Assembly: GCA_964016885.1 (NCBI GenBank) | Contig: OZ024741.1 | Coordinates: 328,414,001-328,478,000, forward strand | Length of the DNA stretch: 64,000 nt | From: Eledone cirrhosa | Lineage: Eukaryota | Direction of reading: 5' to 3' | Shown: piece after piece, positions 6,586 to 64,000 of the stretch | Layout of the letters: every line of letters starts with the position of its first letter | Numbering within the stretch: position 1 is the stretch's first letter | Position numbers and translations under genes: made by a program | Notes under the pieces: model-generated | The model's input: only the letters and a program-made list of their open reading frames with translations | Databases searched by the model: none | Told to the model about the DNA's origin: nothing

Positions 6586-6623
<38 letters not shown>

Positions 6624-28035: not shown

Positions 28036-28293
28036 TATATATATATATATACTAACAGATTAAATGTTAAGCAAACAATCGCGGCCTTCACCCTTAACAG
28101 GATCTTCTGAAATATTTGCTCTACGGTTCTTATATATTTGATATATATTTATCCTTATCGAGCCCTCTTTGGATTTTAGTCTTCAAAAATATTATTATTA
28201 CTATATATTATATATTAATATTACTGTATATAAAGTACCAGTAATGCACTGGGTAATTGCTGGCCTTGTGCCTAAAGTAGAAACAATTATTAT

Positions 28294-28707
<414 letters not shown>

Positions 28708-29775: not shown

Positions 29776-30673
29776 TATTTCTTTATTTACCATAAAGGCA
29801 TAAAAAGAAGGGACAAATACAAAGGGGGAGTTTACATAAAACCGAGTAAAAAGGGTATAAAATGAAAATAATCGAAAACAACCTCAAAAGGGAGGGGACG
29901 TGATGGGGGTTGCACACACCCCCGAAAAAGTGTGCAATCCTTTGCCCGGGGAGCACATGGAGAAGGTGCTCCCTCTTCTTCACTTCTTTACCTACAGGTT
30001 GGTATACAGAGAAGGCCCAATTACATGAGCCATTCTCGCCACTATCACCCACCTTTCATAAAACTGCCTGTGGCCAAGCACCTCTCTCTCCATTCTTATC
30101 CTTCATCCGAAGTGATATCGGAAGAAGTAGACCAGACTATGGCCAGAGAGGAAGTTGCCTGACCTCAGACCTTTCAATCGTGTCCACCAAACAACCTCTT
30201 TCAACATGGCTATTACGCACAGAAAAACCGCCTTTGCTTCCTTTGTGAAGAGGGGAGGCGGTTTGATTGTCACCACGGACTCGGCGGTGAATCGAATCGG
30301 CGCCACCCGCGACAGCAGTCGTGACGCACGCATCTAGGGCAAATCTTTTTCGAGGGATCCCTGCCCGGGCGCCCGTGTCTGTAGAGCCTCTATCGAACGG
30401 GTAGAGCCCCACGGTAGCACTGCCAGGCTAGTGACTTCTGGAAGTTGTCCATTGGTCCCGGGCCGAAAGTCCTACCGAACAGGCTGGCCAGCTCGTCCTC
30501 TTCCATGTCCAGCGACTCTCCAAGGGTGTCATCGCCCCTGCTAGCCACCAGCACTCTATAGCATGATGAGGTGGATTCTCCACCGATAGCCGGGCTCGCT
30601 TGCCAGAGAACCCTGAGCACCTGGGCACACTCAGTGTGCCAGTCTCCCAGTTTTCCGGATCTTTGCTTGGCAA
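29775..30673 (-). mobile_element. Tx1/L1-type LINE, 5'-truncated diverged copy with internal deletion
   Basis: Homologous to 30695-31705 (GPMDNFQKSLAWQCYR, KEVVWWTRLKG); flanked on both sides by (GATA)n. Confidence 0.85.
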
Positions 30674-30958
30674 TAGATAGATAGATAGATAGATATGTTT
30701 CTTTTATTTGCCACCAGGGCATCAAAAGTGGGACAAGTACAATGTGGGGAGTTTACAAAACAAGGCGTCCTCAATAAGGAGGAGGCAATAACAATATATA
30801 AAATAAAATAAAATATAACAAAAAATAAAATTTATAACAAAGTCCTCAATAGAGAGGAGGCGCCTTGGGGGGTCGCACACACCCCCGAAAAAAGTGTGCA
30901 ACCCTTCTCCTCAGGAGCACAGAGAAGGGGTGGTCCCTTGGTCTTTCATCTTCCTCAC

Positions 30959-33900: not shown

Positions 33901-34396
33901 GGGACAGGCCCCTACGTAGTCCCAGCGTGCATCTAGGATACCATTCCAGTCCCCCACTAATAGCAAGGAGCGGGACGTCCCTAGAAAAGTCTCCAGACGA
34001 TGGAAGAAGTCCGGCCGCATTGACCTGAAAGGGCCGTAGGCGGCTATCAACCTAAACGCTCCGCCTTTACCACTGCCAAGGTCCAGAACCACTAGTCGAC
34101 CCTCCGGGTCCAAATGTACCATCTGTGTTGCGAGACCCAGATGTTTTTGCAGCAGAACGACAACTCCACCCCCACCTCCGGGCTGACAGAGAGATGCGTG
34201 CATCTCAAAGTCATCAAAGGTGGGGGGCCAGCTGTCGCACGTTGCTGATCCGGGCCTCGCAAATAACCATCACATCTATACGTTGTGACCTGAGGTCATT
34301 TAGAAGCATTGCTTTCTTCCAAGTTGAGCCCAGGCCACGCGTATTTAAACAGCCTACTCTTAGCATAGCCATGTTGGTGGTGAAGAGAAAAGGCAC
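30959..34396 (-). pseudogene. LINE ORF2: AP-endonuclease, reverse transcriptase, C-terminal Cys/His motif; several frameshifts
   Basis: CLNTRGL, VICE, VGDWN, SDHKLV, KSPGLDG, NFRPIS, LDQSKAFDRVDH, RQGCPLS, YADD and CPRC..E..H...C are spread over ORFs 34214-34396, 33832-34203, 33311-33718, 32827-33300 and 30959-32809. Confidence 0.92.
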
Positions 34397-35029
34397 TTAC
34401 CTCTCTGCGTCCCGGGTATCGGGCTGCACAATTTCCATTAGGGTGGGGGATGGGTTTTTGGGTGGGGTGGTGGTTTGTGGAAGTGTAGGGGCATCAGGGT
34501 GTTGTGTGGTTGGGGAGCTTGGAGTTGTGTGGGTGTTTTGGGAGGGGGTGGGGTAGTTTTTTTAGGAGGACGCGGTTAATGGGCCCGACGCAGGGGGGAC
34601 CCACGTCCTCTTTAAAATTGTTTTTTAAAGTTTTATAGGTGTCCTGTGGGGCCTTAATCATTTTGAGGTGGGGAAATCCCCTGCCTGGGTGAAGTTAGGC
34701 CCTTGTGTTTTTATTAGATTGTTGTTGTACACAATGTTTAACAGTTTTTTGTTTCTTGTGTTTATGTATGTGTATGCATGTTTTTGTTTTTGTGTGGTGT
34801 TTTTTGTTTGCTGTTGTTGTGAGCTCTTTTGTGTTGGTGTCAGTGTTATGTTTTGGGGAGGGGTTGTTTTCATTTGTGTGTCTGAGGTGTGTTTTCTTTT
34901 TTTTCTTTTGATTGTGTGGAAGTGCTCCTCCTCGTCTGACGACGAACTAGGGTCATCTTCCGCGTTGGAGGGGAGGGGTATATTTTCGGGTTGTGTTTGC
35001 GGTGCGGGTGTTTTGGAAATTGTTTTTGT

Positions 35030-36036
35030 TTATTGAGTGGAGGGGATGAGTTGGACATTGTTTTGTTTTAGTTTGAGCTGTGGTGGTTGTTTTTGTAGTG
35101 GTAGTTGTGGTGATTGTGTTGGTTGTGCAGTTGCTGGTGGTGTAGGCAGGATTGGGGTTTTCTTATTAAGTTGGGGACAGACAGCCCTCAGGTGACCTCT
35201 GGTTCCGCAGAGGTAACACGAGGGCCATCTACCCTCAACGGTAATGTTGATGAAGGTTAGATCATCCAGTATGACGCGTTCAGGGATCTGGGCGATCCTT
35301 TCGGGCCTCATTTGAACTACAAGTTCGAGGCTCGTTCCACTGAACGCGTCACCCGATGCCTTTCCCATGGACACCAGCATGTCATCCTCCAGGTCCAGGA
35401 AACATGTCAAAACCCACCATATGTCCATAATCGGCAGGATGGTGTGGATTTTTATTTTTTGTGTTCTTCTACCCATGTACGTAGGGTAAAAGGTGTATGC
35501 GGTGGATGTGATTGGTTTGATGGACAGTTTCACTGCTGTGTCCCTATCCTTCATGAGAATGGATAGACTCCCGTAGAGTCTATCCTTCTGAATGAAGGTG
35601 ATGTCCTTCATGACGTCTTTTAAAACCAGCTCTATCTCACTCTGTGATGGTTGAGCTGGTTTTTTACTTTTATTCGAGATTGTCCTAAACATGACCGTGT
35701 TTAGGAGTCTCTGGCTTTTTAGTTCCGGGGGGAATGGATTGTGAATGAACCATTTTCCCCGTACACTATATATTTTTTCGCATCTGCCAGTAGCTCCTTC
35801 GCTTTGGTTATATCTACTGGCAGATAGTCGAGGGTTTTCCTTGTCGTCTCGGCGAAGGAGAAATTTTGTTTGTCTGTGTTGTTGTTGTCGTTGGTGGTGT
35901 TGTTGTTATCATTGTTGTTGTTGTCACAGTTATTGGTCTTTTTGTTGTTGTTATTGTTATTGGTGTTGTTTTCGTCCGTCGCATTGTTGTTGTTGTTGTT
36001 GTTGCTGGTGCCGCTGGTTCTTTGGGTTGTTGCCAT
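35030..36036 (-). pseudogene. LINE ORF1 (gag-like, zinc knuckle), frameshifted
   Basis: CYLCGTRGHLRAVC (CX2CX4HX4C) in 35030-35692; Asn-rich N-terminus with SFAE in 35719-36036; lies upstream of ORF2. Confidence 0.75.
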
Positions 36037-36419
36037 GGCAACGTCAAGTTGTCGGTTAACAGGTGGAGAGAATTCTTCCTCTGGCTGACCTTTCTTCTTG
36101 ACCTCTGCTACTGTGACAGTGGCAGGGGGAAGCTGTAAGTTTATCTTCCCCTTTCCTCCTTCGAATTTTGGTGAAGAAGCTTCAGTCTTTTTAAAAAATA
36201 TTAACTTTTCAACAAGAAAAAACTTTTTTTTTGTTTAACTATTTCGCCTAAAGGCGTAGAATATTTTGAGAGACTGACCAGATCAAAGTTTGACCTGGCA
36301 GTCCCTCTACAAAATGGTACAAAAATTAAAGTTATCAGACAAGAATTTCTATAGAAATTTAAACAGAACTTACTCAGCAAGTTATAAGCGTGTGTCCATC
36401 CCAGAGTTATAAAGATAGT

Positions 36420-36482
<63 letters not shown>

Positions 36483-36483
36483 G

Positions 36484-36537
<54 letters not shown>

Positions 36538-36540
36538 GAT

Positions 36541-38322
36541 ATGTTTCTTTTATTTGCCACCAGGGCATCAAAAGTGGGACAAGTACAATGGGGGGAGTTT
36601 ACAAAACAAGGCGTCCTCAATAAGGAGGAGGCAATAACAATATATAAAAATAAATAAAATATAACAAAAAATAAAATTTATAACAAAGTCCTCAATAGAG
36701 AGGAGGCGCCTTGGGGGGTCGCACACACCCCCGAAAAAAGTGTGCAACCCTTCTCCTCAGGAGCACAGAGAAGGGGTGCTCCCTTGGTCTTTCATCTTCC
36801 TCACCTATAGTCTGATGTAGAGTGAAGGCCCATTCACACGGGCCATTCTCGCCACTTTCACCCATCTTTCATAGAAACGGCTGGGGTGCAGCACCTCCCT
36901 CTCCATCCTGATCCTTCTTCCGAAATGATATCGGAAGAAACGGACCAGTTGTTGGCCAGAGAGAAAGGTGTCTGACCTCAGTCCTTTCAGACGCGTCCAC
37001 CATACAACCTCTTTCGCCATGGCTATTACGCACAGAAACACTGCCTCTCCTTCGTTTTTGAAGAGGGGAGGCGGCTTGATCGTTACAATAGACTCGGTGG
37101 TCAACCGGATTGGTCCCACCCTTGACAGCAGTTGTTCGACATAACCCCACAGATCGGCAATGCCCGAGCAGTGTACCAATGCGTGTGCAACGGTTTCCTC
37201 GTCGCACACGCATCTGGGACAGATCTTTTTCGATGGGTCCCTACCCGGGCGCCCGTGTCTGTAGAGCCTTTCTTGAACGGGCAGAGCCCTTCTGTAGCAT
37301 TGCCAGGCCAGGGACCTCTGGAAGTTATCCATGGGTCCCGGGCTGTATGTCCTACCGAACAGGTTGGCCAGTTCGTCTTCCTCCATGCCTAGGGCTTCTC
37401 CGACGGCGTCATCGCACCTGCTAACCACCAGCCCTCTATAGAATGACGAGGTGGATTCTCCACTGACAGCCGGGTCCGCCTGCCAGAGAGCCGTGAGTGC
37501 CTGGGCACACTCGGTGTGCCAGGCGCCCAGTTTTCTCGGTCTTTGCTTGACCCAGGATTGCAGCTCGGTGAGTGAGACGAGTCTGGGAAAGGCTCGCCTC
37601 ACAAACGGGGCCCACACAGGTTGACCGGAGAGGAATACCTGAAGGTGCCGTAGCCTTAATGCGTGTTTACGTATCATTAGCCACGGCAACCCCAGCCCTC
37701 CTTTCGAAGGGTGTTGACAGCAGATGGATCTCCTCACCATAGGAGCCCGCTTCTTCCAAAGGAATTGGAAGAGTGCGCGCTCCATTTTGGCGAGCGTTTC
37801 CCTTGGGCAAGGCACAACGGTCAGGCGGTAGTAGATGACGGACGCTATATAAGTGTTCGCCACCTCCGCCCGTCCTTTCAGGGACAGTTTGCACTCGGCC
37901 CACTTCTGGGTCAGTGCAAACACCCTGTTCGTCACCTCACCCCAGTTCTTCTCCACCTGGAGGTCTGGTCCGAACCAGACCCCGAGCAACTTCACCGGGC
38001 CCTCCGTCCAGCGCCCGACGACGCCATCGGAGGGCATCGATCTGCCCCTCCACGTGCCGAGTTGCAGACCGATCGACTTGTCCCGGTTCAGCTTAGCCCC
38101 GGTAAACCTTTCGTACTCCTCCAGTAAGGTGCCGATCGCCCTGATTTCCGAGGCCGTCGACACCATTACTGTTACGTCATCGGCGTAGGCTGACACCGCT
38201 TTCCGCAATCCCGGTTCCAACAGGATGCCCTGCAACAACTCCAACTTCCGCAGCAGTGGCTCTAGAGTCATTACATACAGAAGGGAGGAGAGAGGGCACC
38301 CCTGTCGGATGGATCACGCGAT
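36541..38322 (-). mobile_element. Tx1/L1-type LINE, 5'-truncated young copy (open 488-aa RT C-terminal frame 36805-38271)
   Basis: Near-identical to 30695-32475; (GATA)n on both sides. Confidence 0.92.
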
Positions 38323-43749: not shown

Positions 43750-45402
43750 GGAGGATAAGGTGCAGTCGGTTCCAGGGTCAGTACCGGTTCTGCCAACTCC
43801 CCTCAACAGATCTCTCGTCTGCTGCCGGCGATACTCGAAATTCCGCATTTTCATGGAATAGGTGCTAGTAATATAATCACCTAAGCTGCGGGCTGTTGAA
43901 AATGAGACTTTCACAGTGTGCCAGTTGAACAGTTTATGGTATTTATGGGTAGTTGAGAAACACTCATCCAGTGCCTTGAATAATATCGCGGGGATGTTGG
44001 TCCGTATGTGCTTAGAGTAAGGCACATTGAACTACGTTACTTTCCTCAATCTAATCTAAGCGTGTCCTCCATGCCTTGGTGGTATAGGGATGTTGTCATG
44101 TTGTGTGTTGCTCCGGTATTCGTCGTGGTTGTTTACAATGATATGTTGAATATTGCTAGGTCTACCAGTCCGGTAAGAGTTATCGTGGATATTGCCTATA
44201 CTAGAGTGAGGAGTATTTAAGGCATGATGTTTGTTCCTATCCCTATTTACTGTACTACTATAGTTGTTAATGCGCCGTTCCAGTACTCCTACGTTGTCTG
44301 CTAAGCTTACTGTCTCCCTTCCTTGTTTGTCCTTATGTGTTGACCGTGTTGTGGTCACCTATTTCTAATATTCCTATCTTCCGGTATGTTATTGATGTGT
44401 TCCTGGTTTCGAGTGTTATGCGGCCTCTTATTCCCCCGGGCCGTATTATATTCATCTGTCTTGTTGTTATTCCTATCACTAGTGCTGTCCCCTGGCCTGC
44501 CATTGCGTATTCGTCCGTGGTTAATATGTTGGTCGTTGCCTGTACTGCTATTGCTCGGGTATTCAGGTTCCCTGTGGCTAGTTGTGTCTGTATCAGAGAT
44601 GTATTTAATACCTTCTATATAACCAACCCTAACCAGTGCCTCATTATAATATTCGGCATGCTGCCTGAATATTTCGGCGTTGGCCGACAAGGTAGACACT
44701 CGGTTCGAAACTCCGTTAACTATAGAATTAATTATAGTCGTGGAGTGGTTCGAGTATCTACTTAGGTACTGTGAATTATCATTTTGTTTGTGGTACGGTC
44801 GGTAAATGTCTGTATCCAGCTCCATGGTTACATCTAGACAGTTCATCGTCTGTGTCTTGTGGTCTATCTCTACCGTTAATCCGTACTCTTTAAAAAAATA
44901 CCTAATACGTTTCCGCATTCTCTCTACTTTGTTATGATTGAGTGAGCGGAACGTGAAAAAAGCATCGTCTCTATACAATCCACCCCCATCCCGAGAATTT
45001 CCTCCGACAATTATTGCAGGAGAAATATCCCCACTACGTCCGTTACCTGTTCCGGGTCGCTAGATCCCATAGTTATGTTGAAACTGTCGGTTCTAACCTT
45101 ACTCTACCAGAATCTACTGTGGTACTGACAGCTATAATTATGTCCACCACCCTTCTCATGAGGGTATATTTACTCATAGCATTCATGAAGGCCCTATTTA
45201 CGATTACTGGGGAGATAGACGCCTAATAATTTGTTAATTGTCTAGTTGTATAAACCTTAATTCCTGCTTACTATCAAGTTGCGATAACCAATTCATCACT
45301 TCCTTAATGGAGACGAATAAGCTAAGTTTACTTTTAGCCCTTAATTCAGGTAAGAATCTATCTATGATATTCTTACTGACTCTACCTATGTCCGACTTAT
45401 TT
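43750..45402 (-). mobile_element. Penelope-like element RT fragment with long low-complexity insertion in the thumb; endonuclease not seen
   Basis: KSDIGRVSK, RFIQLD, GLYRDDAF, LDVTMELDTDIYRPYHK, YYNEALVRVGY ... HKYHKLFNWHTVKVSFST. Confidence 0.85.
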
Positions 45403-45478: not shown

Positions 45479-45535
<57 letters not shown>

Positions 45536-45766
45536 TTAGAAACACACAGATACATGCGGACACACACATATACATGAATGCATCCACACCCAACCGTGAG
45601 TTAAGGGTGCCAACCTCACCGATGTTGCTCAATGAATGACTGGGACAGACCAATCCGGTTGAACCAGACTGAACCAGTATCAGAGTTAAAAATACATTAT
45701 GAAGAGAGAAGAAACATTTAGATATAATTAGTAATAAAATGTATCATACCTAAACTGCTCCTAGAT

Positions 45767-45856
45767 TCCTCGACTACGTAGTTTCGTGGCATAAACAAAA
45801 ACAATACATCATAAAGATATAGAGTCCTTGCGAGGTCTGCCGACTTATCAAGAGGA
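45767..45856 (-). ncRNA. Type I hammerhead, U3-A8 core (family C)
   Basis: Reverse complement of the 46634-46723 motif, with core and stems identical. Confidence 0.8.
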
Positions 45857-46633
45857 TACCTCATTTTACTAGCCTCAAGAACGCGTCTACACGACGTGAG
45901 AAAGAATCCCAAAAGGCGGAGGGGGAGATAGTCACGCGATAAAATGGTCGAGAAACAGAGCTAAGCCTCTTATAACCCCGAAGAAAATACCACGGAGGCG
46001 GAGGGGGTATTCATATCGAAGCCGTAGAAGAGGTGGTGAAGGAGGCGAGAAGTATGAGCAATGGCTGCTTTCCAGCAGTCGCCACACTTCAAAGATTGCT
46101 CGACCAGAGGGAGTTATAAACAATATATTTAGAAACACACAGATACATGCGGACACACACATATACATGAATGCATCCACACCCAACCGTGTCTTCATAA
46201 TGTATTTTTAACTCTGATACTGGTTCAGTCTGATTCAACCGGATTGGTCTGTCCCAGTCATTCATTGAGCAACATCGGTGAGGTTGGCACCCTTAACTCA
46301 CGGTTGGGTGTGGATGCATTCATGTATATGTGTGTGTCCGCATGTATCTGTGTGTTTCTAAATATATTGTTAATAACTCCCTCTGGTCGAGCAATCTTTG
46401 AAGTGTGGTGACTGCTGGAAAGCAGCCATTGCTCATACTTCTCTCCCCCTTCACCACCTCTTCTACGGCTTCGATATAAATACCCCCTCCGCCTCCGTGG
46501 TATTTTCTTCGGGGCTATAAGAGGCTTAGCTCTGTTTCTCGACCATTTTATCGCGTGACTATCTCCCCCTCCGCCTTTTGGGATTCTTTCTCACGTCGTG
46601 TAGACGCGTTCTTGAGGCTAGTAAAATGAGGTA

Positions 46634-46723
46634 TCCTCTTGATAAGTCGGCAGACCTCGCAAGGACTTTATATTTTTATGATGTATTGTTTTTGTTTATG
46701 CCACGAAACTACGTAGTCGAGGA
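46634..46723 (+). ncRNA. Type I hammerhead, U3-A8 core (family C)
   Basis: tcctc-TTGATAA-gt c ggca...tgcc ac-GAAA-ctacgtag-TC-gagga; predicted cleavage after 46718. Confidence 0.8.
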
Positions 46724-46791
46724 ATCTAGGAGCATGTAGGTATGATACATTTTATTACTAATTATATCTAAATGTTTCTTCTCTCTTCATA

Positions 46792-46917
<126 letters not shown>

Positions 46918-47140
46918 CTATGTATATATATATGTGCGTATATTATTCCAATTCCACCCCGTCCGTACATTCAATCTATTTTATTTCTCATTCTTTCTTC
47001 CGATGAACGACTTACGTCCGAAATCTTAATACATTCTTCCTGCTATTTTAATCGTTAACCTAATATATTCCTTCCATATACTGCACCGATTGTGCTGATA
47101 TTTCTGTTGACCTTGTAATAAACAACATAAGGCAATTATT

Positions 47141-47196
47141 TCATTTACCAGTGGTTTCTTGAAAGGAAACAAATTAATTTTCTATCATCAGAATGA
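47141..47196 (-). ncRNA. Type I hammerhead, canonical core, eroded stem II (within repeat ~47114-47265)
   Basis: tcatt-CTGATGA-...-GAAA-ccactgg-TA-aatga; homologous to 56534-56690. Confidence 0.6.
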
Positions 47197-47456
47197 AAAA
47201 ATCCTGGTGTATTTATTGACATTGGATTTTAAAAACAAAAATATAATCTATATGAAAGTGAGGGTGGAAAAGGAAGAAGGAAAGGAAAAATAAACACGCA
47301 TGCACACACACACACACACAATTACATACACACACATATATACATACACATATATATACATACATATACACACATATATATATATATATATATGCATACA
47401 TACAAATATATATATGCATACACTCATATATATATACACATATATATATGCATACA

Positions 47457-51136: not shown

Positions 51137-51452
51137 TTTATAGAAAAAAAGATGAAATCGAAAATGCAACTGGAGTCTTATTTTTTTTTTAAATATATAT
51201 ATTTATTTGGTTCCTATACCGGTTTCGCAGTTCTTCTGCTTTTCAAAAGTAGAGTTGAGATGGAGGGTCTGTGGTTTTTCTCACATTTTGAAAAGCAGAA
51301 GAACTGCGAAACCGGTAATGGAACCAAATAAATATATATATATTTTTTTAAAATAAGACTCCAGTTGCATTTTCGATTTCATCTTTTTTTCTTTATAATT
51401 TCACTCGTGTAGGACACCTCGGTTATTTTTCATTTTGTAAAAAAACACTCAC

Positions 51453-51460
<8 letters not shown>
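51137..51460. mobile_element. Fold-back copy of family D with two U3-A8 hammerhead motifs (51214-51249 minus, 51285-51320 plus)
   Basis: TTGAAAA-gcagaagaactgc-GAAA-ccgg-TA on both strands; stem I is imperfect in both; ends ctcactttctaata(TA)n. Confidence 0.8.
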
Positions 51461-51500
<40 letters not shown>

Positions 51501-51581
51501 ATATATATATATATATATATATATATGTAAGTATGCATGTATACGTACATACATATATGTATACAAACATACAGTAGCATG

Positions 51582-51621
<40 letters not shown>

Positions 51622-52090
51622 TATACATATGCATACAGGTACACATACATATATGCACGTATCAGTTTAGCGGCGCTAACGTCGCTTTGTTCGTTTGTAA
51701 ACAAACTGAACAGCCTGAATTTATGCCATACGGTGTTAAGGCAACCACGTCACCTTTTTGTTCAACACTGACACAGGAACGATGTACTAGTTTCAAGCTT
51801 GTTAGCTATCATCAGCACCGTTTACCCATCTGCCAGATAGTTGAACGTTCGAAAGTATATACTTTCCTTATGAAAATTAACGGCTGAGCAGCCTAATTTG
51901 CATATTGAGTGAGTTAAATCGGTCAGGCATACCGAAAACGATAAATTGAAACAAAATGAAAACGAAATTTCATTTCTCACTCTTAGTATTAGATTTAACT
52001 CACTCAATATGCAAATTAGGCTGCTCAGCCGTTAATTTTCATAAGGAAAGTATATACTTTCGAACGTTCAACTATCTGGCAGATGGGTAA

Positions 52091-52133
52091 ACGGTGCTGA
52101 TGATAGCTAACAAGCTTGAAACTAGTACATCGT
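52091..52133 (+). ncRNA. Minimal type I hammerhead, canonical (family E)
   Basis: acggtg-CTGATGA-t agc taacaa gct t-GAAA-ctag-TA-catcgt. Confidence 0.8.
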
Positions 52134-52290
52134 TCCTGTGTCAGTGTTGAACAAAAAGGTGACGTGATTGCCTTAACACCGTATGGCATAAATTCAGGCT
52201 TTTCAGTTTGTTTACAAACGAACAAAGCGACGTTAGCGCCGCTAAACTGATACGTGCATATATGTATGTGTACCTGTATGCATATGTATA

Positions 52291-52348
<58 letters not shown>

Positions 52349-52459
52349 TGCTACTGTATGTTTGTATACATATATGTATGTACGTATACATGCATACTTA
52401 CATTTAAGTAAGTGCCATACTAAGAGTGAGAAATGAAATTTCGTTTTCATTTTGTTTCA

Positions 52460-52494
<35 letters not shown>

Positions 52495-52497
52495 TAT

Positions 52498-52616
52498 TCG
52501 AGTATTCTGAGGATTTGATCAGAGGAAATCACTGTATTTAAGGTCGAGTGACGCAACTTCGAGTGATTAACGGCATTTAGACTCACCTGATCAATGAAAC
52601 AATCGTTAATACTTGA
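52498..52616 (+). ncRNA. Type I hammerhead, canonical core, long structured stem II (separate element ~52491-52670)
   Basis: tcgagtatt-CTGAGGA-t-ttgatcag...ctgatcaa-t-GAAA-caatcg-TT-aatacttga; internal aatcact/agtgatt helix. Confidence 0.8.
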
Positions 52617-52681
52617 AATAAAGCCCCTTATTGTACAGCCGACCATGTTATTCTTAATTCTTTTACTATATATATATACAT

Positions 52682-52755
<74 letters not shown>

Positions 52756-52899
52756 GTGTATGTATATATATACATATATACAGTAAGTTGTAATAAAATG
52801 AAAACGAAATTTCATTTCTCACTCTTAGTACGGCACTTACTTAAATGTAAGTATGTATGTATACGTACATACATATATGTATACAGACGTACAGTAGCA

Positions 52900-52960
<61 letters not shown>

Positions 52961-53804
52961 GTACACATACATATATGCACGTATCAGTTTGGCGGACGCT
53001 TATTATAACGCCCGCTTCGTTCGTTTGTAAACAAACTGAACATCCTGAATTTATGCCGTACGGTGTTAAGGCAACCACGTCACCTTTTTGTTCAACACTG
53101 ACACAGGAAAGATGTACTAGTTTCAAGCTTGTTAGCTATCATCAGCACCGTATACCCTTCTGCCAGATAGTTGAACGTTCGAAAGTATATAATTTCCTCA
53201 TGAAAATTAACGGCTGTGCAGCCTAATTTGCATATCGAGTGAGTTAAGTCGGTCAGTCATACCGAAAACGATAAGTTGTAATAAAATGAAAACGAAATTT
53301 CATTTCTCACTCTTAGTACGGCACTTACTTAAATGTAAGTATGTATGTATACGTACATACATATATGTATACAGACGTACAGTAGCATGCATATATATAT
53401 ATATACATGTACGTATACATACATACTTACATTTAAGTAAGTGCCGTACTAAGAGTGAGAAATGAAATTTCGTTTTCATTTTATTACAACTTATCGTTTT
53501 CGGTATGCCTGACCGACTTAACTCACTCGATATGCAAATTAGGCTGCTTAGCCGTTAATTTTCATAAGGAAAGTATATACTTTCGAACGTTCAACTATCT
53601 GGCAGAAGGGTATACGGTGCTGATGATAGCTAACAAGCTTGAAACTAGCACATCGTTCCTGTGTCAGTGTTGAACAAAAAGGTGACGTGGTTGCCTTAAC
53701 ACCGTACGGCATAAATTCAGGATGTTCAGTTTGTTTACAAACGAACAAAGCGGGCGTTATAATAAGCGTCCGCTAAACTGATACATGCATATATGTATGT
53801 GTAC

Positions 53805-53841
<37 letters not shown>

Positions 53842-54077
53842 TGCTACTGTACGTCTGTATACATATATGTATGTACGTATACATACATACTTACATTTAA
53901 GTAAATGCCGTACTAAGAGTGAGAAATGAAATTTCGTTTTCATTTTATTACAACTTATCGTTTTCGGTATGCCTGACCGACTTAACTCACTCGATATGCA
54001 AATTAGGCTGCTCAGCCGTTAATTTTCATAAGGAAAGTATATACTTTCGAACGTTCAACTATCTGGCAGAAGGGTAT

Positions 54078-54120
54078 ACGGTGCTGATGATAGCTAACAA
54101 GCTTGAAACTAGTACATCGT
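54078..54120 (+). ncRNA. Minimal type I hammerhead, canonical (family E)
   Basis: Identical to 52091-52133. Confidence 0.8.
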
Positions 54121-54412
54121 TCCTGTGTCAGTGTTGAACAAAAAGGTGACGTGGTTGCCTTAACACCGTACGGCATAAATTCAGGATGTTCAGTTTGTTT
54201 ACAAACGAACAAAGCGGGCGTTATAATAAGCGTCCGCTAAACTGATACGTGCATATATGTATGTGTACCTGTATATATATATATATATATATATATGCAT
54301 GCTACTGTACGTCTGTATACATATATGTATGTACGTATACATACATACTTACATACATATATACATATATACATATATACATATATACATATATATGTAT
54401 GTATGCATTTAC

Positions 54413-54446
<34 letters not shown>

Positions 54447-54459
54447 ATGTATATATGTT

Positions 54460-54496
<37 letters not shown>

Positions 54497-54559
54497 GAAA
54501 AGAGTCCGGCCCCCGACAGCTGAGCTCCGGCCGTTTAGACAGCTAGATCCAAAATCAAA

Positions 54560-56440
54560 CTCAATCCTAAAGTGTTCTTTTCATTTACAAAAAAAAAATC
54601 AATTCACTGGCTCTCCACTCTTGGCCCTCTAATTGATGAAAATGGCACTCTCCAAGATATGTTAAATGGGTGAGATACTGCAGAAACAACACTGCTTTGT
54701 TTTCAGCAATCCTGATATAGCCGGTCTGGGCTGTATCAGTGATGTTAATCCCCAACACAAAATATCGGACATAACGTTTCGCTCCCCTGATATCTTACCG
54801 GCAATGAAAGAAACTAAACATAATTCAGCAGTAGGACTCGATAAGTTCCCTGCTTGTGTTCTGAAGGGGTGTGTCGACACCAACTTGCATCTCATCTTGC
54901 TAATCTGTGGAAGAACTCACTAGATGCTGGATATATACCAGAACACTTACTATCCCAGTCTGTTGTCCCAACTTTCAAAAAGGGAAACAAATCCCTTGCA
55001 GTTAATTACCGTTCGATCTCACTCACCTCTCATATCATTAAGGTATTTGAGGGGGGGGGGTAAGATAACGAATAACTCACTTTCTTGAAAGCAACAATCT
55101 TCTGGACTCCAACCAACATGGGTTTCGTAACGGAAGGGATTGCCTAACGCAGCTAATGCTTCAATTGGATGACATCTTGAGAGCTTTAGGAGCGGGCTCC
55201 AACACTGATGTCATCTACCTTGATTTCAGCAAGGCCTTCGACAGGGTTGATCACAACATTCTACTAAGACAATTGGTGTCACCGGGATGTTGCTGCAGTG
55301 GATCAAGTGTTTCCTGTCAAACAGAGCCCAACATGTTGTAGTCGAAGGTGTAAAATCAAGCCCAGCCAAAGTCAGTAGTGGAGTCCCACAAAGCACTGTG
55401 TTGAGCCCACTTCTTTTCATTATCTATATTAATAATATTACTGACACTATCAAACACACCAGCATAAGAATATTCGCAGATGACTCCAACATCTAGAAGG
55501 TCATCAATGGTGTAGGTGACAGGATATGCTTCCAATCAGATTTACTGGCTGTTATTCAATCAGCGGAAAAGAACAATATGCTGCTGAATGAGGATAAATT
55601 GTAGTTAAGCCACTTTCGAAAAGACGATGCCCTGAAACTCCCAAACTCTCTTTCTTCAGGTAAAACTCTCTTGGCATCCAACAACATCAGAGACTTCGGA
55701 GTAATTGTGGACAACAACATAAGCTGGGCCACTCATATGAACGGCAAAGTTGATATGGCCAGCAGAATGTGTTCCTGGATTCTCAGAACCTTCCAGTCGA
55801 GATATATCCACATTATTATCCTTCTCTTCTCCACCTTTGCCCGACTCCACCTTGAATAATGTTGTCCACTGTAGTCCCCCCCACACGAAATAAAGTAACA
55901 TGAAAATTGAAGCTCCTCGAAGGTCAATCACGAAAAAGATAGATGTCATGTCAGGCCTTGACTATAGGGTCAACTAGAAAAAGTTAAACTTTACTCACTC
56001 CAGCCCCGCCGTGAGCGCTATATTATCTGTATGATGCGGAAACTATTCCATCAGCATTTCCCAAATAATGTTGGCATCACCTTTAAATTACAACCAAGGC
56101 TTGAGCCCCGTGCTGTCCGCCCACAACAAAAACCACACTCGCATCTCATAATAATACGGCACAGATATTTCACCTCAATTGGCCCCTCTCTCTTTAACAT
56201 TACATGAAAACACATTAAAACAGAAACACACCTCATATAGTTCGAGAAGTCTTTGGACAAATTCCTTCAAAAAATCCCGCACAAACTTCCTACACCTGGA
56301 TATGTATCCGCAAAAACTAACTCCCTTCTTGAATGGGCCATGGTTTCCAAATCCTGATTTGAAAGACATCGCCAGAGGGTTCTATTAAGTTAGACATGGC
56401 CTCTGCCAATACTGGCCAAAACCTATCAAATTTATCAAAG
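54560..56440 (+). pseudogene. CR1-type LINE reverse transcriptase, 5'-truncated, many stops/frameshifts
   Basis: NYRSISLTSHIIKVFE, QHGF, DVIYLDFSKAFDRVDH, SGVPQSTVLSPLLFIIYIN, IRIFADD and RDFGVIVD. Confidence 0.88.
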
Positions 56441-56476: not shown

Positions 56477-56533
<57 letters not shown>

Positions 56534-56560
56534 TGTAATAAACAACATAAGATAATTATT

Positions 56561-56616
56561 TCATTTACCGGTGGTTTCTTGAGAGCAAATGAAATTTGCT
56601 TCATTCATCAGAATGA
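56561..56616 (-). ncRNA. Type I hammerhead, canonical (within repeat ~56534-56690)
   Basis: tcatt-CTGATGA-atga agcaaat ttc atttgct ctcaa-GAAA-ccaccgg-TA-aatga. Confidence 0.75.
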
Positions 56617-56822
56617 AAAAATCCTGGTGTATTTATTGACCGGATTTTAAAAACAAAAATATAATCTATATGAAAGTGAGGCTGGAAAAGGAAGAAGGAG
56701 GGGAAAAGAAGAGAGAAAAAAGAAGAGGAAAAAGAATAAATATAAAAGTAGATAAACAGACATGCACACACAACCTACATAGAGCACTCTTTTTTCCTGG
56801 ATGCTTCCGACGGAATTACTTC

Positions 56823-56954: not shown

Positions 56955-59490
56955 GTAGGACCCCGACGGCTGAGCTCAAGCCGTTTCGACGTCTAATTCT
57001 GGACTAAATGGAAATGTTTATCCTGGTATATGAATAGCCGAGCTTCTCAGGGGGTAATTCCATATATGGTAAAAGTGATTGTCACAAGGATTGGTCAAAA
57101 GTTTGTTGTTGAGACATAATAATTCTATCATGGCAATTTGTGGAGAGAAGGAGCAGCTCAACCTGCCAGTAGAAGAAAGAGGGAGAGGGGTGGAGGAAAC
57201 CCAGTCGTGCGTTGATAGTGCCAACTACAGCTGGGCAGGAGGTCAAAGAAGATACTAGGGAGGGGGGGGGGAAGTCGAAACAATAAGTAAAACAATATGG
57301 GGTAAATATATAGAAAAATAACGAGAGTGTTAAAAAACAATTAAATCTAAAAAAAAAAAAACAATTTCTGGTTACTATAACCTAAGGACAGCTATCAAGT
57401 CTCTCACTGGTACTGTTAGACTAAAGAAAGGTTTACTAGGTGGGACAGAATTATAATGAGACCCTTTTAAGAGGTATAAGTAAACAACCGAGTATATCTT
57501 ACGGTGACGGGTCAACAAGTGGGGGGCCAAAATACTAAAGAAACTACCACGAAATAATAATTCAGAGTCCCGAGACCAGTACGAAATAAAGGTTTCTACC
57601 CCGCGCACAAGGCCAGCAACCACCCAGTGCAAAAAAAAAAAACTAATACGAAATAATAATCCAGAATCCCGAAAAAGAATACTAATACTATCTCTAAGGG
57701 TGCCGCCACGATACAAAAATTCTGGTGCAAACTACATAAATGCCCGTACGAAGTATATGTTAAATTTGATACGGAAAATTAATTCAGAATTCCCCCCCCC
57801 CCTCCCTCCCCCGAAAAAAATAAATAAATACTGATATACGAGAAATTAAAGCAAAGATACCACTAAGAAATATAGAAAGCACGGAAAAGGGGCAGCCATC
57901 GGATAAGAAGGCAAGTATCCGGGGTCTAACACATCTGCTATAAAAAGCGGAGTCGGCCATATCTATCATAGGATGGGGGAAGGGGGTGGGTCACTGAGGC
58001 AACAAAGGACCGAGGGGCTGCATCGGGTGGGCGAGAAAGTAAAAGGACGACGACAAGGAAAGAGGACTGGGGTGGAAGGACTAAGGAGGGATGGGGGAAG
58101 AAGGAAATATAGAGGAAGCGATAAAAGATATAAAAGAAGATCTTACGTCTACCTTTGCAAGCAGGGGTTACCCATTACAAAATCGGCAAGTGGGGTCTTA
58201 TAGCCCTAGTCTACCCCCTCCACCCCCGCTCATTATGGGGTTTGAGGGCGAGGTAAGTCCTACGCAATCTGTGTTTACATGCAGTTACCAGTTCATCTTT
58301 CTTGTTTAGGAGTTGGTCCGTCTAAAACAACATTTGTAAAGTTTCCTCCGAGCATAAATTGCACGGACGGTGTCCTCCCGTGTAAGAGTTGGCTCTGGAC
58401 AGAAAGCTCCAAGTGAGATCATAGGTAATATTGTGATCCTTGAGGTCCCATATGTGGCCCGAAAGTGTAGTGGCGTGACGCTGGGCCGGATTTCGGAAAG
58501 TATGTCTGTGTTGGTATAGCCGGGTCTTGAAGTCACATGCGGTTAATCCTATATAAGCTTTGTCCGTCCTCACGTTGCACTGGTAGATCACACTACGATC
58601 TCTGCATCTGTTGTCGAAGGGGCAAATGGATCCATCTGGACAGTTGCACCTCCTGGTCGGCTCTCCAGTGCTATTTAGGTTATTTCTTCCATAGGGGTTG
58701 AGATTTTATTGTTAGAGGAGACGATGTTTTGTGCAAAGTTTGGTGTGGTGCTGTAGGAGAGTTTGGTGGTATTTTTGTTAATTATGTTGTGGTAGCGGTG
58801 TTGTAGTGGGAAGTGTTTTTCAATGAGCCTAAAGAAGATTTTCCCGATAGGAGTTGTCACCTCGGCGTTGTGGAGAGGATTGAACCATGTTACATTGCGT
58901 GAGCGGCGGTGTCGCCTGCTGCTTCCGCTAATGGAAGCTGGACAGTAGGATATTTCCCCCCGGAAACCACTCCGCTTGATGGCCTGGTTGTAATAAGGCG
59001 CATGTTCCTAGAATATCTGCTCATTAGCTGACAAACGAGATATGCGGAGGGAGATGTTTTCAACCAGATTATTGGTGATGTTCCTAGGATGGTTTGACCG
59101 GCGGTGGATGTAGTGCAGGTTGTCGTTAGGTTTCCTGTATGGGTAGTACAGATCATTATCGAGGTCAAGGGTAACGTCCAGGAAGTTTACTCGGGTCAGG
59201 GACGTTTGAAGGGTTATTTTAAATCCCCAGTCGCGGAAGAAGCTGATTAATTGTTTACGGACCCGATCTGTACTACTGGGGTTGTACCCTTTAAGGGTAA
59301 GGAGCCCATCATCACGGTACAATTCACCGCTGAATGCAGGAAACATATCGGTGAGTTTGGCTATTAGGAATAATCCTATAAGATCTGTGACCTCAGCCGA
59401 ATCCGTCGCGCCCATGCTGACGTCGAAGGGTGAGTCGGGAGCTCTATTTATCCATTTGGAGTTGTCGAAGAGTAAGACTCTCTTCCTGGC
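56955..59490 (-). mobile_element. Penelope-like element, 5'-truncated (RT, CxC-GIY-YIG, ~1.3-kb 3' region with terminal HHR)
   Basis: FDVSMGATDSAEVTDLIGLFL, LYRDDGLL, NFLDVTL, CNCPDGSICPF...IYQC..YIGLT..FKTR..H and CNLCSEE. Confidence 0.9.
56960..57055 (-). ncRNA. Type I hammerhead at PLE 3' end, mismatched core (C3/A8)
   Basis: acccc-CTGAGAA-gctcggcta...ttagacgtc-GAAA-cggct tgagctc agccg-TC-ggggt. Confidence 0.6.
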
Positions 59491-60349: not shown

Positions 60350-63300
60350 TATAAGAATCAAAGAACTGTTCAAAACATGTTTGTGCTTACAACTGTTTCC
60401 TCCAAACCGAGGTTTGGATTCTTGGGAGCAATTTATTAATGAATGAACACTTATATGACCTCCTTTTCACCCAAGGGACATACAGATACATATGCAAATA
60501 TTGTGGGTCAACATTCATTATAGCATTTAGAGTGGCAGTACACACTTAGAGATTACATTCATATTAAAAGATACAATAAAAAAAACATGAAAATAAGCGG
60601 TTATATAGTGCAAATGTTATATGTGTGGCAAGCACGTGCGTCTTGTTTATATAGTGTGGCAGAGAGTTACGTGTAGTAGAAGCACTTAGGTAGGTAAACA
60701 AGAGTGTTAGGTTGGTTGATCTGGTGGCAAATTCTTTATATGATTGTTATAGTCTGTGTGTGGAGAAATGATATAAGCATTAAAAATAGTGCAAGCATTA
60801 AAAATATTTAAAATATTGGAAATGCACAGCGAAGGGATGTTATGGACTTCATGTACTTTGACATTTTCATAGTCAGGGAAGTGTATTTTTCAGATTATAT
60901 GCCCCTCACATAATCCACGACAATTCGATTTTGAGCGTTTGACAATCCAGTTAGAGAATCGTAGTCTGATGTTCTTTAGTTCAATACAGGAGGATGTTAC
61001 GTTTCGAGAATTGACATTGAATACTACCCGGAAGTGTGTGTGTGGCTAAGGGGAGTTAATGCATGAGGGGAGGTAACTCCGAGGTTTCTATTACTAACTA
61101 TTGAAATATGTCTCAAAATAGACCCTAATTTCTATGGTTATGCGTAACTTCTAAAACATTTCTAAAGCATAAAGTGTTTTAACTATAGAGTAGTCTATTA
61201 AGTTGTGCTGAAGGTGTTCGTATTATTATGGTGAATTAACCCCCATCGTAGAGTGCCACAAATGAATATTATAGACGACGAGCGAGGATTCTAAATTAAT
61301 GATCTCTGTGGTTGTAGTCTACTCATAGGACCAGGCGCGGTGATTGCAGAATCACTTCAACACACAATGATCTCTGGTAAGTTCTGGGTCATCGCTTGCT
61401 ACATTGGATGTCGAAAGATAATCATCACCAGGGCCGACCAGAGGTCAATCCGCAGTCCTCATGACCCCACTCTGACCATCAAATCATCCATATATGTACA
61501 ACCCGCACGCCAGTTGCAATACATTCATTCTCTGCACTCAGCGTACCGGTCATACTGCTCAACAGCGTTACTAGATTAAATCGTTGTTCATCTGTCCAAG
61601 GAAGGCACTTCCTCCGCACAACACTAACAAGCCAATCAATTCATGCTTAAATTATCTATAGAGTGGTGTAGTGCAGTTCAAGTGGGTGGATGTTGTCACA
61701 CCTAACGTAGAGGTATAAATGGGTATTCGCCTTGCGAAGGGTTCTAGAGGGATGTCGCTGTTTGTGTTATATTAGATCAGTTAGTGTTGGGTATGTGGTA
61801 TAAGGTGTGCCCCTGGTGTTTGATGCTAGGGGTGGTGTTTGGTTCAAGTCCGACATTGCTATATATTGGGCTTAAAGTTTTGGAAGGAATGTCTGAAGCG
61901 GTGCTGGCAAGTTGCAAACACTTCAGATTTTTTGTTAAGTAGGTTACGGTTAGAGAAGATAATATTGTAGGTCTCTAGTATACAGAGGTTACAAAATTTA
62001 TTAGGTGGTTTGTACAAAGTCGCGCTACCTATCACTTCCCATTTGAGTGTGTAAGGTTTATTTTTAGTTTTTAGATAGTGTATGTAGCTAGATAGTGAGG
62101 TGGAGTTGGCTAGACTGTGCTTTTTGAACGAGTGGAGGTGCGAATTATATCTGATTTTGAAGCAGTTAGAAGTGGAGCCTACATACGTTTCTGAAGAGTT
62201 TCTAGTTGTGACGGTGCATGAGTATATGATATCCTTGGTTAGGCATTTTTTATCTAAAGGGCAGGTTCTATTAGCTCTACAGTTACGATTATCCTGTGTG
62301 TTAGTCTGCTGGTTATAATGCAGTGCAGAAGTCTGGGTGGTAGCTATAGGATTTTGGACATTCGGGTTGTCAACCCCGGTGTTATTTCTTATACTAGTGT
62401 TATTTCTATTGTTACTGCCGTTACTATGGTTGCTTGCTACAGAGGTATTTAGAAGGTTTACATCCTGTTGTGATTTCGTTTGTTGGAAGTAAGAATTAAT
62501 TTTACTTTTATTGCTGCTAGCTATGTGGTATGCTAAGTTAGGCGTCGTAGAGTATGAGATTTTAATAGTGTTTTTGTTTAAAAGGTTGTGGTACTTGTGT
62601 CCTAGAGGGAAGTTTTTATCTAGTAGTGAGAAGAAAGCCCTAGGTATGTTGGTGGAGACATTTAGGTTGAAAGGAGGGTTGACAAATGTATTATTTCTTC
62701 TTCTATTTTTGTTTTTAGTGTTTGGTGTGTTGTTTCTTCCTAAGGCACTACGGTAGTTTCCGTGGTAATGGTTACTTCCGGTGGCACCCTCCGCTTTGGT
62801 GTACTTGTGGTTGCTATTCCTATTATTAGGTTTCTTCATGGACATGTTGTGCGAGATGATGTTGTAGCTATGTGTTTTCTTAGGTAGGAATTCGATTTCT
62901 ATATTATGGCCGGATCTAGCTAATGCTTGATTGTAATATTGTGAGTTTTTGCTAAATATGTTTGCGTCATAGGATAGATTAGAGATTCTATTGGATACCC
63001 CCTTAGAGATAGAGTTTAATATTGATCTAGGGTGATTAGACTTGGTATCTACGTAAATGAGTTTTTCGTTAGGCTGATGGAAAGGTGTATATATTTTTGA
63101 GTCTGGGTATAGTGTGGCGTCTAGGAAGTTAACATTTTTAGTGTTTTTGTCTATGGTGATACTAAGGTTAAAGTTTATGAATGTCTTGTGCAATAGTTTT
63201 CTAGTTCTTTCTATATTAAATTTTTTTATATTCTATAAGTAGAAGTGCATCATCGCGGTACAAACCACCGTTGAGGTAAGGGAGGTCCTTATGGATTTCA

Positions 63301-64000
63301 TTAAGAAGGTATAGGCCGACCAAATCAGTGACCTGCGCCGAGTAACTAGATCCATGGTTATGTCGAAGTTGTTGTGCGTATCCTTGCGTGTCCATAGTTA
63401 GTCCTCGAAGGTGATTATGGTTTTACAGGCCGCAAGGATGACATCAATCTAGGCTCTAGTCAGGTCGCTATTGTTCATGGCCATGATTAGTGCCTTGTTT
63501 AATAGGATAGGGGAAATAGAGGTGTAGTATGATTTGATATCAAATTGAATAAATTGTTTGTCCTTATTATTCTTGATATCTTTGAACCATTCAATCACTT
63601 CACCCGTATTTCCCCATTGTTTAAGGTGTATCTTGTGTTTAATCTGTGGAATGATTTTATCTAAAATTTTCTTGCTGATAATACCAATGTCGGACTTGGA
63701 AGGGCAGATAAGTCTTATCGAGGGGTTGCTGATGAAGTCCTCCTTATGCTCCTTCAGAGAGAATCTAGGGGGGGTTTGGGGTGAATGGTTGTGTATGCCT
63801 CTGAAGTCCTAGTTTAGACACTATATTATATCCCTCTATATTAATGTCTTCTAAGTTTTTCAAGGTGGTCTCCTTGTAGCTTTTATGTAGTTCATTATAT
63901 ATAAACTTTCTATAAGTATTATAATCTAGGCTGTATATGTTATTAATTTTATCTGCTTGTACAATAATTTTATTACTAGTTTTGAATCCATTAATAGAGG
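60350..64000 (-). mobile_element. Penelope-like element continuing past the window end; same family as 7420-10888
   Basis: RT motifs in 63200-64000 are interrupted by stops/frameshift; the thumb-endonuclease frame is open; 3' motif ggggagttaatgc..aggggaggtaact is shared (61048 vs 8027); decayed HHR at 60384-60430. Confidence 0.92.
61859..63193 (-). pseudogene. Open 444-aa C-terminal part of the PLE ORF (RT thumb + GIY-YIG endonuclease)
   Basis: NFLDATL, FVNPPFN, NCRANRTCPLDKKC, IIYSC...YVGST..FKIRY..H, CNLCILE and LN..SE...CQH. Confidence 0.88.

What the first reader, a model, noticed from the sequence alone, without database searches (positions are those of the whole stretch)
51526..54355. 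2.8-kb array of a 464-bp retrozyme-like unit: five hammerheads in two fold-back blocks
Seen: five near-identical minimal HHRs (acggtg-CTGATGA-tagctaacaagctt-GAAA-ctag-TA-catcgt) in -,+,-,+,+ order. Units start and stop at different phases and carry an internal (TA)n of variable length. The last two HHRs are exactly 464 bp apart, and the 53614 copy has GUA changed to GCA (likely inactive). Two sub-variants (tttacccatc vs tatacccttc) mark two separate insertions at the same locus. Inference: a young, active non-coding retrozyme family. The tiny palindromic stem III (actagt) suggests dimer-dependent cleavage.
Basis: partly seen in the sequence, partly recalled or inferred. Interest (0 to 1): 0.75.

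Follow-up and report, generated by a model that had tools for sequence, protein, structure and literature searches.

The report
Non-coding Penelope-type repeat with hammerheads
The stretch is two separate mirror-image insertions of a small, abundant, protein-free jumping element that carries a self-cutting RNA motif and shows the insertion marks of Penelope-like retrotransposons, so it is a real and tidy new example of a known kind of genomic parasite.

Summary
In detail: five type I hammerheads (-,+,-,+,+), the last two 464 bp apart, one with GUA changed to GCA. It is not one array but two independent head-to-head insertions (51525-52464; 52784-54354) of a closed non-coding unit of about 460-495 nt into TA-rich tracts. 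That one-sided 'tail', the head-to-head junction and the (TA)n target are published marks of Penelope-like element (PLE) insertion. The hammerhead has the U/U-flanked 4-bp stem II seen in 14 of 26 listed Hydra-clade PLE hammerheads, and five broken PLE ORFs with Hydra-type motifs lie in the window. Public reads show thousands of variant pieces, structure-preserving variation (P about 0.0002) and opposite-strand joints, so the fold-backs are a family trait. The driver element, expression, cleavage and a circular RNA are not shown. This locus cannot release a monomer: its only tandem pair has one dead site. Verdict: new member of a known kind (non-LTR retrozyme / non-autonomous PLE derivative).

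The parts
51525..51989 (-). Block 1, left arm: 0.97 unit, unit position 260 through the cleavage site to 246 (short 3' end, no tail), runs out into (TA)n
51990..51991 (.). Block 1 head-to-head junction: two bases (TA) that match neither arm's run-through sequence
   Evidence: read from sequence
51992..52464 (+). Block 1, right arm: 0.95 unit, position 329 through the cleavage site to 307 (long 3' end with tail), runs out into (TA)n
52404..52464 (+). 61-nt terminal tail of block 1
52784..53407 (-). Block 2, left arm: about 1.3 units, starts at the internal TA tract (position ~157), ends at 307 (long 3' end with tail)
52784..52844 (-). 61-nt terminal tail of block 2
53407..54354 (+). Block 2, right arm: 2.05 tandem units, position ~221 to 246 (short 3' end). 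Junction with the left arm at 53407: 1 base shared exactly, 5 of 6 with one mismatch
51779..51821 (-). Hammerhead 1, core intact
52091..52133 (+). Hammerhead 2, core intact
53109..53151 (-). Hammerhead 3, core intact, private mismatch in stem I (53110)
53614..53656 (+). Hammerhead 4, U16.1 changed to C (53649): cleavage site predicted dead
54078..54120 (+). Hammerhead 5, core intact
53651..54114 (+). One cleavage-to-cleavage monomer (464 nt), no ATG ORF over 56 codons on either strand, ends joined by an extended stem I
51460..51524 (.). (TA)n target tract left of block 1
52465..52783 (.). Spacer: (TA)n, a 178-bp stretch unique in the window, second TA-rich tract
54355..54500 (.). TA/CA-rich target tract right of block 2

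Best explanation
A non-autonomous derivative of a Penelope-like element (a non-LTR retrozyme), probably moved in trans by a Hydra-clade PLE. Steps: (1) source loci make more-than-unit RNA of a folded, non-coding 460-495-nt unit (inferred); the hammerhead can cut only when two copies pair their palindromic stem III, giving monomers and perhaps circles (inferred from literature). (2) A PLE RT/GIY-YIG complex nicks both strands of a (TA)n tract and starts reverse transcription at two fixed internal sites of the RNA, positions ~246 and ~307 (fixed ends shown; priming inferred from the PAc experiments). (3) The two cDNAs grow towards each other, run through an intact cleavage site, so the template was an uncut multimer or a ligated circle (shown for all 4 arms), stop at variable points and are joined by 0-5 nt microhomology or 2 added bases (junctions shown, order inferred). 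The result is a head-to-head insertion with the 61-nt tail on one side only. This happened twice, about 320 bp apart, from two sub-families. The locus is a dead end for monomer production and, if read through, would give long hairpin RNA (inferred).
For: Two fixed 3' ends, one of each per block, in 2 of 2 blocks. Same rule in 3 of 3 fold-back copies of an unrelated family in the window, tail 63 nt; 5 of 5 discordant pairs has chance 1/32 if each arm chose either end at even odds. Published PLE footprint: inverted 5'-truncated copy, tail at one end, (TA)n bias (PMC8557442 passages; PMC3846280 passages); in vitro the PAc protein cuts and extends both strands and starts at two internal sites that bound the tail (PMC11167929). 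Hammerhead layout ctgatgat/4-bp stem/4-nt loop/tgaa/act..agt matches 14 of 26 Hydra-clade rows and 0 of 8 Chlamys/PLE-X rows in File S2; 26 of 27 Hydra families list (TA)n (counted by eye). Five broken PLE ORF copies in the window, three with the CxCX5C linker and four with CxxC before the conserved E, the Hydra marks. Family-wide: 5525 contig pieces of run X1 and 76,827 raw reads of run X21 lie on 427 bp; 13 of the 15 joints shown are opposite-strand, and 4 of these have a side length equal to the distance to the upper end of the stretch, which fixes them as 5'-5' joints at different places. Of 40 variant rows shown, 6 break a predicted pair against 15.0 +/- 2.6 expected (P about 0.0002); N7 of the core varies, and stem I shows G-U to A-U and to U-G. 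Non-repeat part folds at z -6.0 on the hammerhead strand, -3.2 on the other.
Against: No PLE in the window shares sequence with the unit, so the driver is not identified; no genome is held. The tail is 61 nt against the 30-40 bp described. No target-site duplication can be read in the microsatellite flanks. Absence of variants in the 12 fixed core positions is not significant (P 0.24), and 43 of 83 variant rows and 87 of 102 joint rows were not shown. Alignment of 4 window arms has 0 of 104 pairs with a two-sided change. The hammerhead fold is not the minimum-energy fold of the monomer motif (z -0.2 to -0.8), and the double-hammerhead form of the tandem lies 5.9 kcal/mol above the free fold. 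In the 2026 preprint 8 of 9 predicted dimers did not cleave; PAc inserts without a working hammerhead. The left arm of block 2 has more private changes (6-8) than its partners (2), which a single simultaneous event does not predict well. End 246 could not be tested in reads: the tool skipped 53836-53904.
Confidence: 0.78

Rival explanations
1. The arms are only 5'-truncated ends (pLTRs) of an abundant autonomous PLE, not a self-propagating non-coding family.
For: Same footprint; most PLE copies are truncated; earlier scan notes reached this verdict in other genomes (unchecked).
Against: Three of 4 arms run past one whole pLTR length or across the tail back into another unit with no ORF between, in both sub-families; contig pieces 5-13% divergent also span the tail-to-unit junction (table 8); no loose end shown for organism A reads like entry into a coding region, though 507 rows were not shown.
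Confidence: 0.1
2. Same identity, but the inverted arm is made by self-priming or template switching on one nascent strand (the antisense self-priming idea of Arkhipova et al. 2013), not by a second target-primed cDNA.
For: The block 2 junction joins positions ~157 and ~221, which lie on opposite sides of one predicted long hairpin; both arms of a block are of the same sub-family; the idea is in print for head-to-head PLE copies.
Against: The block 1 junction has no palindrome or microhomology; a fold-back copy would not by itself end at a second fixed site 61 nt from the first.
Confidence: 0.2
3. A satellite-like repeat rearranged at DNA level, or an assembly artefact at (TA)n tracts.
For: Long inverted repeats beside TA tracts are hard to assemble; no read or contig shown spans these particular junctions; RAD libraries make chimeras (the joints at 53929 lie at AATT cut sites).
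Against: The arms carry private changes, so they are not mirrored copies of one read set; two blocks and three copies of another family obey the same two-end rule; raw reads of another study show 5'-5' joints away from AATT sites.
Confidence: 0.05

Closest known systems
Animal non-LTR retrozymes (Cervera and de la Pena 2020, PMC7229834, passages read; Li, Clavereau and Pollet 2026 preprint 10.64898/2026.07.22.740005, parts 1-3 of 5 read)
   Same: Non-coding tandem unit of a few hundred nt, low GC, one type I hammerhead per unit, high copy number, co-occurrence with PLEs.
   Different: Here mostly sub-unit to 2-unit arms in head-to-head pairs with fixed ends and a tail; the words 'inverted' (PMC7229834: 0) and 'tail' (preprint: 0) do not occur in those main texts. 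Unit holds a variable (TA)n. Circular RNA not shown.
Insertion architecture of endonuclease-bearing PLEs (PMC8557442 Fig. 2 legend; PMC3846280; PMC11167929)
   Same: Head-to-head inverted 5'-truncated copy, partial tandem, tail at one end only, microsatellite target, microhomology at the 5' junction.
   Different: No ORF; tail 61 nt rather than 30-40; 3' ends lie 246 and 307 nt behind the cleavage site.
Hydra-clade PLEs (Craig et al. 2021, section 11 and supplementary Files S1, S2, part 2 read)
   Same: (TA)n targeting; hammerhead with extra U on both sides of a 4-bp stem II and stem III beginning act..agt; ORF fragments with Hydra motifs in the same window.
   Different: Stem III has no loop (pure 6-nt palindrome; listed Hydra motifs have 1-3 nt); no sequence link to any PLE ORF found.
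Minimal and small-palindromic-helix-III hammerheads of metazoan PLEs (Cervera and de la Pena 2014, PMC4209133, parts 1-2 of 4 read)
   Same: Palindromic 15.2-16.2 region, extra nucleotide after A9, dimer requirement; that paper already notes pairs 100-700 bp apart on opposite strands.
   Different: G10.1-C11.1 is absent; stem I extends far beyond 6 bp.

Membership tests
Type I hammerhead ribozyme | Conserved core CUGANGA...GAAA...UH with stems I and II | tested here: met
   4 of 5 copies have the full core; the fifth has U16.1 to C. Stem I 6-7 bp in four copies.
Type I hammerhead ribozyme | G10.1-C11.1 closing pair of canonical motifs | tested here: not met
   U and U flank stem II; this is the form of 14 of 26 Hydra-clade rows, so it does not exclude a PLE-type hammerhead.
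Type I hammerhead ribozyme | Rfam hammerhead model match | tested here: not met
   0 hits at gathering score; none among the 150 of 179 E-value rows listed.
Type I hammerhead ribozyme | Self-cleavage | not testable with these tools
   Needs in vitro transcription.
Non-LTR retrozyme | Head-to-tail repeat of 150-450 (up to ~970) bp with one type I hammerhead per unit | tested here: met
   2.05 tandem units at 53407-54354; 1.3 units at 52784-53407.
Non-LTR retrozyme | No coding capacity | tested here: met
   Longest ATG ORF 39 and 56 codons in the circularised monomer.
Non-LTR retrozyme | Two consecutive units with complete hammerheads (the preprint's criterion for 'active') | tested here: not met
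   The only tandem pair has one GCA site; says nothing about other loci of the family.
Non-LTR retrozyme | Unit-length linear and circular RNA | not testable with these tools
   No RNA run could be laid.
PLE-mobilised element | Inverted 5'-truncated copy joined head-to-head | tested here: met
   2 of 2 blocks; 4 joints in raw reads fixed as 5'-5'.
PLE-mobilised element | Tail at one end only | tested here: met
   61 nt, 2 of 2 blocks; longer than the 30-40 bp described.
PLE-mobilised element | Insertion into AT-rich or (TA)n DNA | tested here: met
   All 4 outer ends run into TA or TA/CA tracts.
PLE-mobilised element | Sequence shared with the pLTR of an autonomous PLE | tested here: inconclusive
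   None among the 5 PLE fragments of this window; the genome could not be searched.
PLE-mobilised element | Target-site duplication | tested here: inconclusive
   Flanks are microsatellite; none can be told apart.
Autonomous PLE | RT and GIY-YIG ORF between pLTRs | tested here: not met
   No ORF in the unit or between its copies.

The most novel reading that the evidence does not exclude
The locus is a direct genomic record of a dimeric Hydra-clade PLE complex priming two cDNAs, 61 nt apart, on one circular retrozyme RNA and rolling round it more than once. Both arms of block 2 are of a sub-family that is rare in the read pool (at 54186 the block 2 letter is under 2% of minus-mate depth in X21), which fits one template molecule. 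If so, this short ORF-free RNA, with its two start sites around a TA hairpin and a tail hairpin, is a ready minimal substrate for testing how PLE head-to-head insertions form and whether the hammerhead and a circle are needed; and at least five hammerhead families in 64 kb suggest a whole SINE-like layer riding on PLEs in this genome.
Probability: 0.3. Interest if true: 0.55.

Novelty: new member of a known kind. Interest (0 to 1): 0.3.

Why it matters
That animal retrozymes ride on Penelope-like elements has been argued from co-occurrence and pLTR similarity. Here the link is in the insertion anatomy: a closed non-coding unit with the two-start-site tail signature and a Hydra-type hammerhead. 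I did not find that combination described for a retrozyme in four searches (open-licence library only, bioRxiv supplements not seen). It offers a small template for two open questions named in the papers: how PLE tandem/inverted structures arise, and what the hammerhead does. It would not surprise a PLE specialist.

Tried and rejected
Whole-genome copy count and search for the parent PLE: no genome held. Rfam: no hammerhead hit; the miRNA-model hits are produced by the fold-back and TA tracts and lie below gathering scores, rejected. Homology between the unit and the window's PLE fragments: none beyond chance-level short matches. Core-invariance test on read variants: not significant. A first run of the pair-preservation test used a circular fold that mispaired stem I (8 breaks, P 0.005); it was redone on the linear monomer (6 breaks); both are reported. 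Covariation among window arms: none. Joints at 53929 were set aside as probable library chimeras at AATT sites. A shared TTTATTAC near the 3' ends of three families is post hoc and occurs 16 times in the window: lead only. Pfam gave only sub-threshold GIY-YIG hits for two PLE fragments; the ESM Atlas gave unnamed clusters with HTH_animal and, in one, GIY-YIG. The host taxon was not determined; a literature search on octopus gave nothing on this family. Look-ups of earlier findings by place, by sequence and by a long word list were blank.

Full report
Observation. The five hammerhead cores are at 51815(-), 52097(+), 53145(-), 53620(+) and 54084(+) (9 loose matches in the window, 0.77 expected). 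Each reads stem I ACGGTG, core CTGATGA, T-AGCT-AACA-AGCT-T, GAA, ACTAGT, A, then CATCGT. A scan that also asks for stems I-III finds three of the five plus two other motifs, against 1 hit in 30 shuffled windows; the two it misses are the damaged ones (53649 C; 53110 in stem I). Rfam has no hit at gathering score. The window is AT-rich, microsatellite-laden DNA with LINE and PLE fragments, which I read as an animal genome; the taxon was not determined.

Anatomy. Numbering the unit from the base after the cleavage site (53651 = 1, 464 nt), the region is two blocks, each of two arms whose 5' ends meet in the middle. Block 1: left arm 260 to 246 (51989 down to 51525), two extra bases, right arm 329 to 307 (51992-52464). 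Block 2: left arm from about 157 round to 307 (53407 down to 52784, 1.3 units), right arm from about 221 round twice to 246 (53407-54354, 2.05 units). So the 5' starts differ, but each block has one end at ~246 and one at ~307; the 61 nt between form a tail present on one side only (ends are uncertain by 1-2 nt where AT is shared with the target). All four ends run into TA or TA/CA tracts. The blocks differ at about 13 diagnostic places, including a remodelled hairpin, and are separated by 320 bp of other DNA, so they are two insertions. Arms differ at 2 of 258 positions in block 1 and at 2, 6 and 8 of 266 in block 2. Every arm passes through an intact cleavage site, so the template was an uncut multimer or a ligated circle.

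The family. One stretch (53836-54262) was laid on 4 of the 23 runs listed. Run X1 (possibly the source sample) gave 5525 contig pieces: 1507 at 99% or more, 1945 at 95-99, 1663 at 90-95, 410 below 90. X21, RAD raw reads of another study with the same species label, gave 76,827 reads of 12,467,656 read. X5, another organism label, gave 52 contigs. These are not copy numbers but show a large, varied family. Block 1's diagnostic letters are common family variants; block 2 is the rarer type. Of the 15 joints shown (87 more not shown) 13 change strand. One lies at AATT cut sites and is probably a library chimera. In four others the shorter side equals the distance to the upper end of the stretch (46, 42, 36, 32 nt), so both segments run upward from the joint: 5'-5' junctions at different places. 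Fold-backs are therefore a trait of the family, though the two junctions of this locus were not themselves spanned. Among the 40 variant rows shown (43 not shown), 25 fall in unpaired positions, 7 keep a pair, 2 are mutually compensating in stem I, and 6 break a pair, against 15.0 +/- 2.6 for the same changes placed at random (P about 0.0002; 8 breaks and P 0.005 on a circular fold). The variable core position N7 varies; the fixed core does not, but that alone is not significant (P 0.24). The monomer folds at z -7.9, its non-repeat part at -6.0 on the hammerhead strand and -3.2 on the other.

The neighbourhood. Five broken PLE ORF copies lie in the window, all on the minus strand (about 8630-10810, 13700-15380, 43800-45120, 58240-59490, 61860-63980). 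They show YxDD, a GIY-YIG-like stretch, the CxCX5C linker (3 copies) and CxxC before the conserved E (4 copies), the marks given for the Hydra clade. None shares DNA with the unit. An unrelated short family has three fold-back copies (6991-7198, 28329-28596, 51140-51459, the last touching block 1's TA tract); in 3 of 3, one arm stops short and the other carries a 63-nt tail into (TA)n. With the two blocks that is 5 of 5.

Comparison with what is known. Craig et al. 2021 (passages, section 11, supplement part 2) describe partial tandems, an inverted 5'-truncated copy and a 30-40-bp tail often at one end only as general PLE features, and Hydra-clade elements as (TA)n-targeting (26 of 27 families listed) with canonical hammerheads. 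In their File S2, 14 of 26 Hydra rows have an extra U on each side of a short stem II, as here; 0 of 8 Chlamys/PLE-X rows do (counted by eye). Frangieh et al. 2024 (parts 1-2 of 4) show that a PLE protein cuts and extends both target strands, starts at two internal RNA sites that bound the tail, and does not need hammerhead cleavage in vitro. Arkhipova et al. 2013 (passages) note that head-to-head is the usual arrangement and propose antisense self-priming. Cervera and de la Pena 2014 (parts 1-2 of 4) report the dimer logic of palindromic stem III, low activity, and hammerhead pairs 100-700 bp apart on opposite strands. Cervera and de la Pena 2020 (passages) define non-LTR retrozymes; a 2026 preprint (parts 1-3 of 5) argues that they are non-autonomous PLE derivatives and found cleavage in 1 of 9 dimers; its supplements could not be seen and may hold end data.

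How it most likely works. Shown: closed non-coding unit, two fixed ends, head-to-head joints, TA targets, conserved fold. Inferred: a PLE complex, probably Hydra-type, nicks both strands of a TA tract, primes two cDNAs at 246 and 307, and the two are joined where they stop. Stem III can form only between copies (ACUAGU duplex -4.8 kcal/mol). In the one tandem here the downstream site could be cut but the upstream GCA site not, so no monomer is released; the double-hammerhead form is 5.9 kcal/mol above the free fold. Source loci must lie elsewhere. Not shown: driver, expression, cleavage, circle, present-day activity.

Verdict. Real, correctly spotted, and explained by a known class. What is added is a clean case in which a retrozyme-type unit carries the PLE two-site tail signature, with a longer tail than described and a candidate driver clade. 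New member of a known kind; interest 0.3.

Noticed in passing
window 6991-7198, 28329-28596, 51140-51459: Three fold-back copies of a short unrelated family with a hammerhead-like motif (TTGAAAA core variant, GCAG/CTGC stem II, palindromic ACCGGT; stem I weak) and a 63-nt one-sided tail running into (TA)n.
   Followed up: yes
window 45529-46797: Fold-back of a 593-nt non-coding unit between TA tracts, arms pointing outward, with a candidate U3-A8 hammerhead (TTGATAA core near 46640, 10-nt palindromic stem III near 46710); its two ends differ by about 165 nt. One copy only.
   Followed up: partly
window 6067-6590 and 17932-18630: Two tandem/fold-back copies of a ~320-nt unit with a candidate U3-A8 hammerhead (TTGATAA core, long palindromic stem III).
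   Followed up: partly
window 56530-56650 (-), 47114-47230 (-), 15820-15920 (+): A further hammerhead family; the 56611 copy has 7-bp stem I and ends about 36 nt after the cleavage site in (TA)n.
   Followed up: partly
window 56955-57050 (-) and 5027-5130 (-): pLTR-type hammerhead with a stable 6-bp stem III downstream of the PLE fragment at 58240-59490; the core at 57050 appears to lack one base.
   Followed up: partly
window 11460-11525 (-): Isolated candidate hammerhead (CTGAAGA core, 6-bp stem II) upstream of the PLE fragment at 8630-10810.
   Followed up: no
window 8630-10810, 13700-15380, 43800-45120, 58240-59490, 61860-63980 (all -): Five broken PLE RT/GIY-YIG copies with Hydra-clade motifs, from at least four diverged families; two have a long N/T-rich insert between thumb and endonuclease, recalling the asparagine-rich inserts of PMC3846280.
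   Followed up: partly
window 29880-38320 (-): LINE-type RT with zf-RVT in a partial tandem (30696-32476 is 98% like 36542-38322); a gag-like zinc-knuckle ORF at 35030-35905.
   Followed up: no
window 54500-56400: Decayed LINE RT fragment right of block 2 (recognised by eye from the sequence).
   Followed up: no
window 20851-20999; 27390-28045; 170-1180: A 150-bp perfect-looking fold-back next to (TA)n, a 522-bp-period direct repeat ending in TA, and a nested tandem/inverted cluster; not examined for ribozymes beyond the scans.
   Followed up: no
run X5, places 54073-54108: In the second organism label some contigs share only the hammerhead core and carry other flanks up to 247 nt: related hammerheads in other elements, possibly pLTRs.
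   Followed up: no
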